Assembly: GCA_022614695.1 (NCBI GenBank)
Contig: JAKEIC010000342.1
Span: 4,012-68,011, forward strand
Direction of reading: 5' to 3'
DNA from: Planctomycetales bacterium
Lineage (GTDB): Bacteria > Planctomycetota > JAKEIC01
DNA: 64,000 nucleotides
A program made the position numbers and the translations under genes. Positions 48,409 through 64,000 of this stretch are shown in pieces. The stretch's first letter is position 1. Each line of letters starts with the position of its first letter. Under the pieces are notes generated by a model, which saw only the letters and a list, made by a program, of their open reading frames with translations, was not told where the DNA came from and made no database searches.

Positions 48409-48501
48409 TGGCGGAGAGGCGGGGATTCGAACCCCGGAGGCAGGTATAACCCGCCTAACGGCTTAGCAAGCCGCCGCATTCGACCACTCTGCCACCTCTC
48501 C
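48409..48501 (-). tRNA. tRNA-Ser (anticodon GCU)
   Basis: Cloverleaf read by hand. The acceptor is GGAGAGG/CCTCTCC plus an encoded GCCA end. The anticodon stem-loop is GCGGC-TTGCTAA-GCCGT. It has a long variable arm (class II) and a T-arm GGGG-TTCGAAT-CCCC. Confidence 0.9.
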
Positions 48502-48533: not shown

Positions 48534-49103
48534 TCAGAGGGCCGGTTGGCCCAGGACGTAGCCCACCTTCCGCGCCCACTGGGACTCGGGCCAGCGGTCC
48601 ATGATCCGACGCCACGGCTCTTTCGCCGCGTCCAGCTCCTTCTTCTGCCGCACGCGGCTGATCCCCCACCAGTAGCAGGCCTCGGGGGCCCGCTCGGCGC
48701 CGGGGGCGTCGGCCACCTGCCGGAACAGCTCGTGCGCCTCGTCGTAGCGCTTCTCGCCCATCGCGAGGATCGCGCGGCCGAACGTGAGCTCCGGCAGGAG
48801 GTCGCGCGGGGGGAGGTACCCGACCACGAGGTGCGCCGGCCTCTCGTCGGCATCCGTCACGACGAGCCCGGGGAGCCAGCGCACGTTCAGCTTCTTGGAC
48901 AGCTCGATGTGCTTCCCGCTCTCGAGCCTCGCGGGGACGAACCTCTCCGAGATCTCCTTCTCGACGGCCGGGTCTGGATACGTCACGGCATCCATCGTCT
49001 TGCAGCCGAGTCACGTCGGGCTGTGCAGGAAGAGGAAGATCGGCTTCCCGGTCTCCTTCGCCCTCTTGCGGGCCTGGTCCCAGCTCTCGGTCCAGGGGAT
49101 CAT
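48534..49103 (-). CDS. thioredoxin-fold protein with in-frame TGA at the first redox Cys (predicted selenoprotein, UxxC)
   Basis: GAAGGAGG lies 5 nt before the ATG at 49103. There are 30 sense codons, then TGA (49011-49013), then LGCKTMDAV... in the same frame to the stop at 48534. The joined protein reads ..GKPIFLFLHSPT-U-LGC-KTMDAVTYPDPAVEKEISERFVP.., matching the W-C-x-x-C position of thioredoxin-like proteins. Confidence 0.7.
48976..48993 (-). promoter_or_regulatory. SECIS-like hairpin (GGAUGC CGUGAC GUAUCC) starting 17 nt after the UGA
   Basis: A 6-bp stem (one G.U pair) with a GU-containing apical loop 24-29 nt downstream of the UGA, read directly. Confidence 0.4.
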
Positions 49104-62247: not shown

Positions 62248-63528
62248 TCACTCCACCACCGGCAGCCGGATCTTCTCCCTCTTCCCGCCGCGCAGCACCT
62301 CGATCTCGCAGGTCTTGCCCGCCTGCTGCGTCAGCCGGAACCAGGCCTGGAAATGCAGTTCGCTCTCGAAGTCGGCCTTCGCGGCGGCCGAGAGGACCAG
62401 GTCGCCCTTCTTGATGCCGGCTTTCGCGGCGTTCCGGCCCGTGTGGGCCTCGTCCCCCCAGTCCACGATGTACTGGACCCGGAACGCGAACGCGCCGGCG
62501 GGGAGGCCGGCCTTGGCGACGTCCTCGGGGGAGAGTCTCGGTCCCCCGAACCCGGGCTTCGGGGAGAGCCCCCACATCGAGGCCCGCCAGGAGAGGTCGA
62601 GGGGGGACCCGACTCGCCAGCCGGGGCGCAGCGCGACCTTCCCCTCCTTCGCCTCGCCGCCGCGCTCCCAGGCGAGGGGGAGCGTCCCCCCCGCGAACGG
62701 GGTCTCCTCCAGGACCCACTGCACGTCGGCGATCGTCCGCACGCGTCGCCCCCCAACGCGCGCGAGACGGTCCCCGGCGCGGAGCCCGGCGGCCGCAGCC
62801 GGCGACCGGGCGGCAATCTCCTTCACGAGAGTCTGGTCGGCGGGGTCCAGCGCGAGCCCCACGCGGGCGGGATCGGGCCAGAGCCAGATCGAGTCGCGGG
62901 ACCAGCGCTTCGCGTCCTGCGCCGTCCGCCGCTCCGACTCGTTCACCATGTGGCAGTGGAAGCACTTGGGAGCCTTCCCGGCCTTGATCTGCCTCGCCAT
63001 CGCGGGGATCTGTTCGATGGCGCGGACGGGGGCGGGCTTCGGAGGCCGCGGGCTCTTCCCGTACTCCTCGTGGTCGGCGAGCGTCTCCTTCATCGCGCGC
63101 ACGAGCGACGCGATCGAGAGCCGCGCCTCGGCGGGACCCCCGTCGCGGCCGCCGTACTGGCGGTAGATGGTCCCGTCGCCGTTCATGAGGAGCGCGGCGA
63201 ACGTGAGGTCGTAGTCGAAGCGGAAGACGCCGAGGTCCACCCCGGCCATGTCGAGGACGCGGACGCAGACGTAGTCCTTTGCCGCCTCGACGAACTCCGC
63301 GGGGGGACGGACCAACCGCCCGTCCCAGGACTGGCAGTCCTTTCAGGGCTCTCAGCGGAAGACGGCAAGGAGAGGCTTCCCGGACTGGGCGGCCTCGGCG
63401 CGCGCGAGAGTCAGGTCGGCGCGCCAGGAGAATGCCCCTGGCGCGCCCCCGTCCTGGGCGAGGGCTGGGAGAAGAGCCCCGGCCGCGAGGGCGGCGGGGA
63501 GGAACGCGAGGCGAGAGACGAGCGACAT
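62248..63528 (-). CDS. exported thioredoxin-like / CxxCH / double-PDZ protein with two in-frame TGA codons forming a U-E-P-U-K-D-C motif (predicted double-selenocysteine protein)
   Basis: GGAGGAGG lies 5 nt before the ATG at 63528. The signal peptide is MSLVSRLAFLPAALAAGALLPALA-QD. The protein then reads ..SGKPLLAVFR-TGA-GAG-CCC-TGA-AAG-GAC-TGC.. I checked codon by codon that this is contiguous in frame with ORF 62248..63315. PDZ-like segments include AAGLRAGDRLARVGG and AAKAGIKKGDLVL. Confidence 0.7.
63304..63326 (-). promoter_or_regulatory. SECIS-like hairpin 2 (GGGACGG gcgguuggu CCGUCCC)
   Basis: A 7-bp perfect stem. Its GU-rich 9-nt loop lies 25-33 nt after the second UGA (63343-63345). 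Confidence 0.4.
63327..63341 (-). promoter_or_regulatory. SECIS-like hairpin 1 (AGGACU gcc AGUCCU)
   Basis: A 6-bp perfect stem. Its apical loop lies 17-19 nt after the first UGA (63352-63354). Confidence 0.35.
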
Positions 63529-63544
63529 GGAGACCTCCTCCAGG

Positions 63545-63550
63545 ATCCTA
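63545..63550 (-). promoter_or_regulatory. TAGGAT -10-like hexamer built on the LpxL-like gene's TAG stop, 16 nt before ATG 63528
   Basis: Minus strand reads gtTAGGATcctggaggaggtctccATG. Confidence 0.35.
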
Positions 63551-64000
63551 ACCCGGCGCCTGCGCCCTCGGTTGGACGTCTCCCGGTCTCGTCCGCCACC
63601 GCCGGTGCATCCACATCCACTGCTCGGGCCGCTCCCGGACGTCGGCCTCGAGGACGCGCGTCCAGGCGAGCGTCGCGGCGCGGAGCCCCTCCTCGCCCGC
63701 CTCGCGCGGGGGGACCGGGATCCTCTCGTGGATCAGGGCCCGGTACCGGCTCCCCTCGCGGACGAGGAAGATCGGCCGGAGCGCCGCCCCCGCCGCCCGC
63801 GCGACGGAAAGCGGGGCGACCGGAGTCCAGGCCTCCGTCCCGAAGTAGGGGACGAAGACCCCCGGCAGGTCCCGCACGTCCTGGTCGGGGAGGATCCCGA
63901 CGAACTGGCGTTCCCTGAGGACGCGGAGGAGTTCCCGCGGGGAGTCGTCCTGGTACACGACGCGGAACCCGAGCCGCGCGCGCAGGCTCTCGGCGATGGC
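63548..64000 (-). CDS. lipid A biosynthesis (LpxL/HtrB-like) lysophospholipid acyltransferase, 3' part (5' end outside window)
   Basis: The C-terminal pattern is ..GILPDQD......VF.PFFG....T......LA...GA.......R......Y...........PEQWMW.HRRW. The frame is open to the window edge. Confidence 0.7.
   Translation of the reverse strand, partial: AIAESLRARLGFRVVYQDDSPRELLRVLRERQFVGILPDQDVRDLPGVFVPYFGTEAWTPVAPLSVARAAGAALRPIFLVREGSRYRALIHERIPVPPREAGEEGLRAATLAWTRVLEADVRERPEQWMWMHRRWRTRPGDVQPRAQAPG

What the first reader, a model, noticed from the sequence alone, without database searches (positions are those of the whole stretch)
62248..63528. Exported thioredoxin-like/PDZ protein with a U-x-x-U (two-selenocysteine) redox motif
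Seen in sequence: a strong RBS, an ATG at 63528 and a textbook signal peptide open a reading frame. That frame runs into ORF 62248..63315 without any frame change. It is interrupted only by two TGA codons three codons apart (63352-63354 and 63343-63345). They sit in ...KPLLAVFR-U-E-P-U-K-D-C-QSW..., which is where thioredoxin-fold proteins carry their CxxC. Each TGA is one substitution away from TGC. No other stops or frameshifts occur across about 1.3 kb. Two perfect hairpins follow at bacterial-SECIS-compatible distances (63327-63341 and 63304-63326). TGA is clearly a normal stop elsewhere in the window. Established knowledge: bacterial Sec is usually found at redox Cys positions of Trx-fold proteins and needs a local SECIS hairpin. 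UxxU diselenide motifs are known to me only from eukaryotic SelL. Inference: this is a bacterial periplasmic protein with a diselenide-forming UxxU centre.
Basis: partly seen in the sequence, partly recalled or inferred. Interest (0 to 1): 0.85.

Follow-up and report, generated by a model that had tools for sequence, protein, structure and literature searches.

The report
Two-selenocysteine thioredoxin-PDZ protein gene
This gene for an exported thioredoxin-like/PDZ protein has two in-frame UGA codons that comparative evidence says are read as selenocysteine; the family is already a catalogued selenoprotein, but the two-selenocysteine form, and the extra RNA hairpin that accompanies the extra UGA, do not appear in the catalogues I could search.

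Summary
The minus-strand frame 63528..62248 has 426 codons and is broken only by TGA at 63354-63352 and 63345-63343 (…VFR-U-E-P-U-K-D-C…).

Comparative data show these are conserved Sec codons, not decay:
- All 79 species-level genomes in which the region could be read have TGA at the second position.
- The first position is TGA in 47 of them (including this window) and TGY (Cys) in 32. TAA or TAG never occurs.
- More distant full-length relatives have CxxC at the same place.

A covarying hairpin 18 nt after UGA2 is present in all UGA2 genes and absent from the CxxC relatives. A second hairpin directly after UGA2 occurs almost only when UGA1 is present. The pattern is therefore 0, 1 or 2 hairpins for 0, 1 or 2 UGAs.

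The protein scores 410 bits (cutoff 300) against NCBIfam NF041199, "Trx7/PDZ domain-containing (seleno)protein". This family was first predicted in 2008 and is catalogued as CxxU with one Sec. UxxU is also known in other bacterial families, so the claim that it is known only from SelL is wrong.

Verdict: a real two-Sec variant of a known selenoprotein family, mis-annotated as two genes in the public record. The Sec machinery of this genome could not be checked, and diselenide formation is untested.

The parts
62248..63528 (-). Complete gene: 426 codons plus a TGA stop. It encodes the precursor of a Trx7/PDZ selenoprotein with U59 and U62.
   Evidence: frame. (NF041199, 410 bits against a cutoff of 300, aa 34-423). 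(frame conserved across the TGAs in 77 loci).
63534..63541 (-). Shine-Dalgarno-like GGAGGAGG, 5 nt upstream of the ATG at 63528-63526.
   Evidence: Read directly. The upstream gene (lipid A acyltransferase) stops at TAG 63550-63548.
63457..63528 (-). Predicted signal peptide, aa 1-24, with an ALA|QD cleavage site.
   Evidence: Judged by eye. Homologues have an equivalent Met + hydrophobic stretch + small-x-small segment upstream of the motif. No signal-peptide predictor was available.
63190..63426 (-). Thioredoxin_7 domain (aa 35-113) that contains the redox motif.
   Evidence: PF13899, E=2.9e-9.
63352..63354 (-). UGA1, codon 59, predicted Sec. It corresponds to the first Cys of CxxC.
   Evidence: TGA in 47/79 loci and TGC/TGT in 32/79. 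Cys in the CxxC relatives.
63343..63345 (-). UGA2, codon 62, predicted Sec. It corresponds to the second Cys of CxxC.
   Evidence: TGA in 79/79 loci, never TAA or TAG. Cys in the CxxC relatives.
63334..63336 (-). Cys65, giving U-x-x-U-x-x-C spacing. Mostly conserved; a possible resolving or ligand Cys.
   Evidence: present in most loci, replaced by S or A in L007, L020, L028 and L030.
63327..63341 (-). Hairpin 1 (AGGACU-GCC-AGUCCU). It starts 10 nt after UGA1, and its loop lies 16 nt after UGA1. It is specific to the UxxU form.
   Evidence: energy <= -3 kcal/mol in 44/47 UxxU against 9/30 CxxU, p=1e-9; 28/30 nearest cross-type pairs; 77% against 41% of cells paired; not different between CxxU and CxxC.
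63304..63326 (-). Hairpin 2, the SECIS for UGA2. The family core is GACGRRC-AGGUU/AGUUG-GYYCGUC at 63324-63306. Its loop lies 25 nt after UGA2 and 34 nt after UGA1.
   Evidence: 91% of cells paired, 7/7 pairs with compensatory changes, 0/500 shuffles reach the observed value; at least 6/7 pairs in 68/82 UGA2 genes against 0/68 CxxC genes.
62950..62964 (-). Invariant C189-F-H-C192-H193, a CxxCH motif between the Trx and PDZ parts.
   Evidence: Invariant in A1 and A3 and in the Cys-form alignment A4. Its function was not tested.
62632..62832 (-). PDZ domain 1 (aa 233-299).
   Evidence: PDZ_2, 9.5e-15. (DegP/DegQ/RseP PDZ matches).
62266..62439 (-). PDZ-like domain 2 (about aa 364-421).
   Evidence: weak DegQ/RseP PDZ matches. 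(high-confidence beta-rich module)..
62248..62250 (-). TGA used as the true stop of the same gene, with no hairpin following it.
   Evidence: Homologues end at the same C-terminus, …LPVVE.

Best explanation
Window 63528..62248 (-) is one gene. It encodes an exported member of the Trx7/PDZ selenoprotein family (NCBIfam NF041199) in which both cysteines of the thioredoxin-type CxxC are selenocysteine (U59-E-P-U62).

Translation through the two UGAs, which are 9 nt apart, depends on two adjacent in-frame RNA hairpins.
- Hairpin 2 is the family's SECIS for UGA2. It has a 7-bp stem, a loop of AGGUU or AGUUG, and the loop lies 25 nt after UGA2.
- Hairpin 1 fills the 17 nt between UGA2 and hairpin 2. 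It is an add-on that arose, in several different sequence registers, wherever the first Cys codon became UGA.
- Most likely hairpin 1 acts as a second, minimal SECIS placed 10 nt after UGA1. That resembles the 11-nt spacing of the E. coli fdhF mini-SECIS, which I recall from memory. Under this reading each UGA has its own pre-loaded SelB·Sec-tRNA.

The mature periplasmic protein is inferred to be a selenol/diselenide oxidoreductase. Its two PDZ domains would hold substrate polypeptides. An invariant CxxCH between the Trx and PDZ parts may be an additional (heme or metal) redox site.

Status of each step:
- Shown: conservation of the UGAs, the Cys/Sec correspondence, covariation of the hairpins, and the link between hairpins and UGAs.
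- Inferred: SelB binding to each hairpin, a diselenide, periplasmic location, and substrate binding by PDZ.
For: - Frame and TGAs.
- Domains: Pfam Thioredoxin_7 + PDZ; NF041199 at 410 bits against a cutoff of 300.
- Truncated gene calls: all 120 best protein hits are N-terminally truncated calls of 326-374 aa that begin after the TGA.
- Codon conservation: in 79/79 species-level genomes with the region present, the second position is TGA. The first is TGA in 47 and TGY in 32. There is no TAA or TAG, and the upstream frame is open back to a Met plus signal peptide.
- Cys forms: full-length relatives at 31-36% identity carry C-x-x-C at exactly these positions.
- Hairpin 2: 91% of cells paired, 7/7 pairs with double-sided changes, 0/500 shuffles reach the observed value, and slid registers give 27-46%. 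It has at least 6/7 pairs in 68/82 UGA2 genes against 0/68 CxxC genes, with an MFE difference at p=7e-25. The loop is AGGUU, AGUUG or AGGUC, with G at position 2 as the bSECIS model requires.
- Hairpin 1: median -6.1 kcal/mol in UxxU, -1.6 in CxxU and -2.35 in CxxC. UxxU against CxxU gives p=2.5e-8, and CxxU against CxxC is not significant. It is 77% paired in UxxU against 41% in CxxU. It is more stable in the UxxU member of 28/30 nearest cross-type pairs, while the two forms are interleaved on the tree. It occurs in three different registers and sequences (GGACU/AGUCC, GCCU/AGGC, CGUCUU/AAGACG), which points to independent origins.
- Same-mRNA control: TGA is the real stop of this gene.
- Second Sec gene: a UxxC gene with its own covarying hairpin lies in the same window. 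This implies the organism decodes Sec.
Against: - Sec machinery: no tRNA-Sec, selA, selB or selD was found in the window or in 1.3 Mb of related loci. This is uninformative about the rest of the genome, but the machinery remains unverified.
- No Rfam SECIS match.
- Hairpin 1 alone is weaker (-6 to -7 kcal/mol) than the -7.5 threshold of the bSECIS model. Its loop has no conserved GU, because the G comes from the Cys65 codon. Its 16-nt UGA-to-loop distance is at the lower limit. So direct SelB binding to hairpin 1 is uncertain.
- Exceptions: 3/47 UxxU genes lack a good hairpin 1 (L003, L006, L054), and about a quarter of CxxU genes have some hairpin there.
- The synonymous-codon shuffle test was weak: p<0.05 in only 15/47 sequences for hairpin 1 and 17/47 for hairpin 2.
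- No experimental data exist for any member. Diselenide chemistry, export and a heme at CxxCH are all inferences.
Confidence: 0.85

Rival explanations
1. Hairpin 1 is not a SelB-binding SECIS. Hairpin 2 is the only SECIS and serves both UGAs. Hairpin 1 is a compaction or spacer element (or a pause signal). While UGA1 is in the A site, it folds the 17 nt between UGA2 and hairpin 2. This brings hairpin 2 from 27 nt to an effective distance of about 10-11 nt. Hairpin 1 then melts as the ribosome advances to UGA2.
For: - Hairpin 1 has no conserved SelB-type loop (GU) and is below the bSECIS stability threshold.
- The hairpin 2 loop is 34 nt from UGA1, which is near the 37-nt upper limit of the bSECIS model. 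Some help might therefore be needed.
- Only the fold of hairpin 1, not its sequence, is conserved across three registers.
Against: - After the first insertion, a new SelB·GTP·Sec-tRNA would have to reload on hairpin 2 within three codons.
- The 10-nt spacing and roughly 17-nt size of hairpin 1 mimic a minimal SECIS.
- No data here discriminate between the two models.
Confidence: 0.3
2. The gene is a pseudogene, or the TGAs are sequencing or assembly errors of TGC.
For: Each TGA is one substitution from TGC. The window comes from a metagenome-assembled genome (names).
Against: - The same TGA..TGA is present in 46 other species-level genomes, and TGY..TGA in 32 more.
- No other stops or frameshifts occur across 1.3 kb.
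- The hairpins are linked to the UGAs.
Confidence: 0.01
3. Two separate genes, as in the public annotation: a 58-aa peptide ending at UGA1, and a 355-aa PDZ protein that starts internally.
For: NCBI lists P0126 (58 aa, 'hypothetical protein L0216_20385') and P0001 (355 aa, 'PDZ domain-containing protein') separately.
Against: - Start codons chosen by gene callers differ from genome to genome.
- The split would cut a Trx fold between beta1 and alpha1.
- Full-length CxxC homologues are single proteins.
- The NF041199 model spans aa 34-423.
Confidence: 0.02
4. The U-x-x-U-x-x-C triad, possibly together with CxxCH, is primarily a metal, heme or cluster-binding centre (for example Fe-S/Se, Cu or Hg) and not a diselenide/dithiol-type redox couple.
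For: - CxxCxxC-type spacing is conserved in most Sec and Cys forms.
- CxxCH is invariant.
- Another bacterial UxxU family is a metal-binding, MerA-like protein.
Against: - The motif sits at the canonical Trx CxxC position of a Thioredoxin_7 domain.
- The third Cys is dispensable in several members.
- Some Cys-form relatives have lost the motif entirely, as is often seen for redox-inactive Trx-like paralogues.
Confidence: 0.15

Closest known systems
Trx7/PDZ domain-containing (seleno)protein, NCBIfam NF041199. Earlier names: 'putative secreted serine protease MucD' (GOS 2008) and 'PDZ domain-containing protein, pfam13899'.
   Same: Full-length match above the equivalog cutoff (410 against 300 bits). 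Same Trx7 + PDZ architecture, Sec at the second position of the motif, and a SECIS hairpin downstream.
   Different: The catalogues list the family as CxxU with one Sec. Here, and in 46 of the 78 other genomes examined, the first Cys is also Sec (UxxU) and an additional hairpin is present.
Eukaryotic SelL (UxxU, diselenide-forming; Shchedrina et al. 2007, cited)
   Same: UxxU at the CxxC position of a thioredoxin-fold domain. A diselenide is the expected oxidised state.
   Different: Not homologous: SelL is Prx-like, this protein is Thioredoxin_7. SelL uses a 3'-UTR SECIS that can serve both UGAs. Here the SECIS elements are in-frame and local.
Bacterial UxxU selenoproteins: Prx-like thiol:disulfide oxidoreductase (PF00578, UxxC/UxxU), metal-binding/putative mercuric reductase (NF041115), FmdB family (TIGR02605)
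   Same: Bacterial proteins predicted to carry two Sec three residues apart.
   Different: Different folds or families. No analysis of how two nearby UGAs are served by SECIS elements was found in the papers searched.
Bacterial SECIS (bSECIS model; E. coli fdhF minimal hairpin)
   Same: Hairpin 2 meets all model constraints. Hairpin 1 resembles the minimal 17-nt hairpin placed about 11 nt after UGA (fdhF details from my own knowledge).
   Different: Two hairpins lie back-to-back, 1-2 nt apart, and serve two UGAs 9 nt apart. Hairpin 1 is sub-threshold in stability and has no conserved loop sequence.
Periplasmic Trx-like reductases (DsbD-gamma/DsbE/TlpA class) and PDZ proteins (DegP/DegQ, RseP, MamP)
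   Different: No protease domain and no membrane domain. MamP-like magnetochrome domains were not detected beyond the bare CxxCH motif.

Membership tests
NCBIfam NF041199 Trx7/PDZ (seleno)protein | Whole-protein HMM score above the curated equivalog cutoff (300 bits). | tested here: met
   410.2 bits, E=7.7e-123, aa 34-423 against model positions 2-389 of 390.
NCBIfam NF041199 Trx7/PDZ (seleno)protein | N-terminal Thioredoxin_7 domain followed by PDZ domain(s). | tested here: met
   (PF13899 at aa 35-113; PDZ_2 at aa 233-299). (second PDZ-like module).
NCBIfam NF041199 Trx7/PDZ (seleno)protein | Sec (TGA) at the second position of the C-x-x-U motif, as catalogued. | tested here: met
   TGA at codon 62. 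Also TGA at codon 59, which is beyond the catalogued description.
Bacterial SECIS (bSECIS model, PMC13188914), hairpin 2 for UGA2 | Loop of 3-9 nt, stem of 4-16 bp, G in the first two loop positions, 16-37 nt from UGA to loop, MFE <= -7.5 kcal/mol. | tested here: met
   Loop of 5 nt (GGUUG here; AGGUU or AGUUG in the family). Stem of 7-9 bp. 25 nt from UGA2. -18.4 kcal/mol in the window. Covariation.
Bacterial SECIS (bSECIS model), hairpin 1 for UGA1 | Same constraints as above. | tested here: inconclusive
   Loop of 3 nt (GCC), stem of 6 bp, G first, and 16 nt from UGA1, which is the lower limit. MFE is -6.8, above the -7.5 threshold. Its presence is tightly linked to UGA1.
Sec-decoding organism | selA, selB, selD and tRNA-Sec(UCA) in the genome. 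| not testable with these tools
   None in the 64-kb window or in 80 related loci. Indirect support: a second conserved UGA-containing Trx gene with a SECIS lies in the window.
Selenoprotein (Sec/Cys-pair criterion of Kryukov & Gladyshev) | Homologues align Cys with the in-frame TGA, and conservation extends on both sides of the TGA. | tested here: met
   Position 1 is Cys in 32/79 loci. Both positions are Cys in 61-68 CxxC relatives. The upstream frame is conserved.
SelL-type diselenide oxidoreductase | Homology to SelL or the Prx-like fold. | tested here: not met
   Pfam and NCBIfam give Thioredoxin_7 / NF041199, with no AhpC-TSA or Redoxin hit.
SelL-type diselenide oxidoreductase | Reversible intramolecular diselenide between the two Sec residues. 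| not testable with these tools
   Needs protein chemistry.
c-type cytochrome / magnetochrome-like heme site | CxxCH in an exported protein. | tested here: met
   C189-x-x-C192-H193 is invariant in Sec and Cys forms. The signal peptide was judged by eye.
c-type cytochrome / magnetochrome-like heme site | Recognisable cytochrome c or magnetochrome domain, or demonstrated covalent heme. | tested here: not met
   No cytochrome Pfam or NCBIfam hit. The MamP/MamE hits cover only PDZ. Heme attachment is not testable here.

The most novel reading that the evidence does not exclude
This family is a natural three-state series: CxxC, CxxU and UxxU carry 0, 1 and 2 in-frame hairpins. It shows how bacteria solve the insertion of two selenocysteines only three codons apart. 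Each UGA acquires its own minimal SECIS. The second one (hairpin 1) evolved repeatedly and independently in the 17-nt gap between UGA2 and the original SECIS. The product is a periplasmic diselenide centre, possibly wired to a c-type heme (invariant CxxCH).
Probability: 0.4. Interest if true: 0.65.

Novelty: new variant of a known kind. Interest (0 to 1): 0.5.

Why it matters
1. Annotation. The gene is split into two meaningless ORFs in the public record. All 120 best-scoring homologues listed in the protein database (of 238 hits) are N-terminally truncated. The family's true active site (UxxU or CxxU) is therefore invisible to ordinary pipelines.
2. Catalogue correction. In the genomes sampled, the two-Sec form is the majority form (47 of 79), although the family is catalogued as CxxU with one Sec.
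3. Mechanism. Bacterial SECIS elements must sit next to their UGA. How two UGAs 9 nt apart are both recoded is therefore a real question. The strict 0/1/2 correspondence between UGAs and hairpins, with hairpin 1 arising in different registers, gives ready-made wild-type, loss and compensatory variants for reporter and SelB-binding experiments.
4. Application. It may also give a design template for expressing diselenide-containing proteins in bacteria.

Tried and rejected
- Single-sequence folding of the 76-nt region against dinucleotide shuffles is not significant (z=-0.9). I rejected it as evidence because 74% GC sequence folds anyway.
- Rfam found no SECIS family hit at gathering or permissive thresholds.
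- Synonymous-codon shuffling of the 18-27-nt hairpin segments gave only weak per-sequence significance. I replaced it with comparative contrasts.
Nothing was found, and the positive control worked. This is uninformative for the whole genome.
- A search with the N-terminal 102 aa for full-length Cys forms returned only fragments. The Cys forms were found instead through the exhaustive representative search.
Only the 364-aa part after UGA2 could be folded (pLDDT 95.6). Its coordinates are not exposed, so I could not measure the distance between CxxCH and the active site.
- Conserved gene neighbourhood: none beyond the gene itself.
- The first attempt to translate the second candidate gene used the wrong frame and was redone.
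Full report
OBSERVATION

On the minus strand, an ATG at 63528-63526 is preceded by GGAGGAGG with a 5-nt spacer. It opens a frame of 426 codons that ends at TGA 62250-62248. The only internal stops are two TGA codons: 63354-63352 (codon 59) and 63345-63343 (codon 62). The context is …GKPLLAVFR-U-E-P-U-K-D-C-QSW…. The N-terminus (MSLVSRLAFLPAALAAGALLPALA|QD) looks like a signal peptide, judged by eye. With U replaced by C, Pfam finds Thioredoxin_7 at aa 35-113 and a PDZ domain at aa 233-299. Folding of the single sequence is not statistically unusual in this 74% GC DNA (z=-0.9), so the case has to rest on comparison with other sequences.

ARE THE TGAs CONSERVED?

A protein search returned 238 relatives. 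All of the best 120 are 326-374 aa and cover only 78-85% of the query. Every gene caller started after the TGA site, and several calls begin 'MDC(Q/K/R)SFDGQ' immediately after it.

I fetched 80 loci from one-genome-per-species assemblies. They are mostly Planctomycetota, with some Verrucomicrobiota, Armatimonadota and one Poribacteria, at 33-55% identity. I translated the frame upstream of the conserved FDYDLT anchor. Two loci are cut by contig ends. Counting this window, the region could be read in 79 sequences, and the results are:
- The second motif position is TGA in 79 of 79.
- The first position is TGA in 47 (including this window) and TGC or TGT in 32.
- TAA or TAG never occurs.
- The upstream frame stays open back to a Met followed by a hydrophobic signal-like segment.

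An exhaustive profile-free search of 1.84 billion representatives then found full-length relatives (400-454 aa, 31-36% identity) that carry C-x-x-C at exactly this place, for example FRCVPCDACKIFD and FRCIPCEACAQLDEQVV. So Cys aligns with both TGA positions. This is the classical Sec/Cys-pair criterion. The pseudogene, sequencing-error and two-gene readings are effectively excluded. The gene's own terminator is also TGA, so the same mRNA uses TGA both as Sec and as stop. The difference is the local RNA context.

THE RNA ELEMENTS

A gapless 66-column alignment of 77 loci starts at the first motif codon (A2).

Hairpin 2 occupies columns 31-37 paired with 43-49. Its consensus is GACGRRC-AGGUU/AGUUG-GYYCGUC, and it encodes D-G-Q-V-V-R.
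- It is 91% paired.
- All seven pairs show double-sided changes. At columns 35/45 the counts are GC 45, AU 16 and CG 6.
- 0 of 500 shuffles reach the observed scores.
- Slid registers fall to 27-46% paired.
- Amino-acid replacements come in compensating pairs (DEQLAR, DSQVVS, DAQLGR, WRTVVR), and every one preserves the stem.
- Its geometry is a 5-nt loop with G at position 1 or 2, a 7-bp stem (9 bp here), a loop 25 nt after UGA2, and -18.4 kcal/mol in the window. This meets every constraint of the published bSECIS model (PMC13188914).

As a negative control, I fetched DNA for the CxxC relatives from metagenomes. Of 68 CxxC genes, none has 6 or more of the 7 pairs in that register (median local MFE -4.35). 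By comparison, 68 of 82 UGA2-containing genes do (median about -10 to -11.6; p=7e-25). Hairpin 2 is therefore tied to UGA2 and not to protein coding.

Hairpin 1 lies directly after UGA2. In the window it is AGGACU-GCC-AGUCCU at 63341-63327. It tracks UGA1.
- Its local MFE is <= -3 kcal/mol in 44/47 UxxU genes against 9/30 CxxU genes (p=1e-9).
- Medians are -6.1 (UxxU), -1.6 (CxxU) and -2.35 (CxxC). CxxU and CxxC are indistinguishable.
- The tool count gives 77% of cells paired in UxxU against 41% in CxxU, and 41% is the background level.
- UxxU and CxxU forms are interleaved on a tree built from the C-terminal protein part. In 28 of 30 nearest cross-type pairs, the UxxU member has the more stable hairpin 1 (Wilcoxon p=4e-6). 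Examples are the Armatimonadota pair L060/L065 and L080/L064.
- Hairpin 1 exists in at least three different sequences and registers: GGACU/AGUCC, GCCU/AGGC and CGUCUU/AAGACG. This argues for repeated independent origin.

The overall pattern is: CxxC has no hairpin, CxxU has hairpin 2, and UxxU has hairpins 1 and 2.

MECHANISM

Hairpin 2 is the SECIS for UGA2. This is shown by conservation, covariation, the link to the UGA, and the fit to the model.

For UGA1 there are two models.

(i) Tandem SECIS (preferred). Hairpin 1 starts 10 nt after UGA1, is about 17 nt long, and has its loop 16 nt from the UGA. This resembles the minimal E. coli fdhF element (my own knowledge). Two pre-loaded SelB complexes would avoid having to reload one SECIS within three codons.

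(ii) Spacer or compaction. The hairpin 2 loop is 34 nt from UGA1, which is near the 37-nt limit. Folding of hairpin 1 would shorten that distance while UGA1 is in the A site. In favour of this model, hairpin 1 is below the -7.5 kcal/mol model threshold and has no conserved GU in its loop.

The data here show that hairpin 1 is needed when UGA1 is present. They do not show which model is right.

THE PROTEIN

The motif has U-x-x-U-x-x-C spacing, and the third Cys is mostly but not always conserved. A C-x-x-C-H motif (C189, C192, H193) is invariant in both Sec and Cys forms. In an exported protein this could be a c-type heme site. No cytochrome domain is detected, however, so I record it as an untested lead.

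There is no conserved gene neighbourhood. Here the gene follows a lipid A acyltransferase gene by 19 nt.

My functional inference is a periplasmic selenol/diselenide oxidoreductase that uses PDZ domains to engage substrate polypeptides. That rests on domain logic only.

COMPARISON WITH WHAT IS KNOWN

The protein scores 410 bits (cutoff 300) against NCBIfam NF041199, 'Trx7/PDZ domain-containing (seleno)protein'. The family's history in the literature is:
- 2008: predicted from two GOS reads as 'putative secreted serine protease MucD', motif CxxU (PMC2398784).
- 2022: listed as 'PDZ domain-containing protein, pfam13899, CxxU' (PMC9312934).

Bacterial UxxU motifs are catalogued in other families: Prx-like, a MerA-like metal-binding protein, and FmdB.

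Three things appear to be new relative to the papers I could search:
- the two-Sec form of this family;
- its predominance (47 of 79 genomes);
- the one-hairpin-per-UGA pattern.

The public record for this very genome splits the gene into a 58-aa 'hypothetical protein L0216_20385' and a 355-aa 'PDZ domain-containing protein'.

SEC MACHINERY

No tRNA-Sec, selA, selB or selD is present in the window or in the 1.3 Mb of related loci.

There is indirect support. The window contains a second gene (49103..48534, minus strand) with an in-frame TGA (49013-49011) in a Thioredoxin_2/7-type context, …FLFLHSPT-U-LGC-KTMD…. All 64 of its homologues are truncated after the TGA. Three checked contigs conserve the upstream 44 codons, the TGA, and a covarying hairpin (GGRKRC-CGUGAC-GYMYCC) 17 nt downstream.

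VERDICT

The novelty is reduced to a new variant (UxxU with a tandem-hairpin recoding signal) of an already catalogued selenoprotein family. Interest is moderate (0.5). The finding corrects annotation and the catalogue entry. It also offers a clean natural system for asking how bacteria recode two UGAs three codons apart.

Noticed in passing
window 48534-49103 (-); in-frame TGA 49011-49013; hairpin 48975-48994: A second likely selenoprotein gene of 189 codons: MIPWTESW…GKPIFLFLHSPT-U-LGC-KTMD…. It has a Thioredoxin_2/Thioredoxin_7 domain plus TPR, and an AAGGAGG RBS. All 64 homologues are gene calls truncated after the TGA. Three homologous contigs (L081-L083) conserve the upstream frame, the TGA and a covarying hairpin with loop CGUGAC 17 nt downstream. 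It probably belongs to the known 'thiol:disulfide interchange protein (Thioredoxin_2, UxxC)' class, but that membership was not tested.
   Followed up: yes
window 62950-62964 (-), aa 189-193: An invariant C-x-x-C-H motif lies between the Trx7 and PDZ parts. It is conserved in UxxU, CxxU and CxxC forms alike (alignments A1, A3, A4). It could be a c-type heme attachment site in an exported protein, or a metal site. No cytochrome domain was detected. A nearly invariant His (H153 of the precursor, in 'LADHEEY') could be a distal ligand.
   Followed up: partly
window 63352-63528 and 62248-63315 (-): The public annotation of this MAG splits the gene. A 58-aa 'hypothetical protein L0216_20385' (P0126) ends at UGA1. 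A 355-aa 'PDZ domain-containing protein' (P0001) starts at an internal TTG. All 120 best-scoring family members listed in the 5.8-billion-protein database are similarly truncated.
   Followed up: yes
window 63334-63336 (-), Cys65: The motif is really U-x-x-U-x-x-C, which is ferredoxin-like CxxCxxC spacing. The third Cys is conserved in most Sec and Cys forms but is replaced by Ser or Ala in L007, L020, L028 and L030.
   Followed up: partly
window 63548-64000 (-): The upstream neighbour is a lipid A biosynthesis acyltransferase (PF03279, E=3e-25). Its TAG stop is only 19 nt before the selenoprotein ATG, so co-transcription is possible. This linkage is not conserved in other genomes.
   Followed up: partly
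L108 (metagenome contig Ga0065712_10068602), about 13 codons after the CxxC motif: One CxxC-form relative has an in-frame stop in '…CVPCPPGKTLDE*VMQPD…', where relatives have K, A or Q. It could be a sequencing error, a pseudogene or another recoding site. The stop codon's identity was not checked.
   Followed up: no
window 48409-48501 (-): The only tRNA in the window is tRNA-Ser(GCT), 93 nt. It lies about 30 nt downstream of the second selenoprotein gene. It is not tRNA-Sec, since its anticodon is GCT and not UCA.
   Followed up: partly
L079, L146, L161 (CxxU forms, '…CIP*TACAGFDGQVVR…'): A small CxxU clade has a stable hairpin (ACGGCUUGUGCCGG, -7.2 kcal/mol) in the hairpin 1 position without having UGA1. 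This is an exception to the rule that hairpin 1 goes with UGA1. It may be a recent U-to-C reversion, or a pre-adaptation.
   Followed up: no
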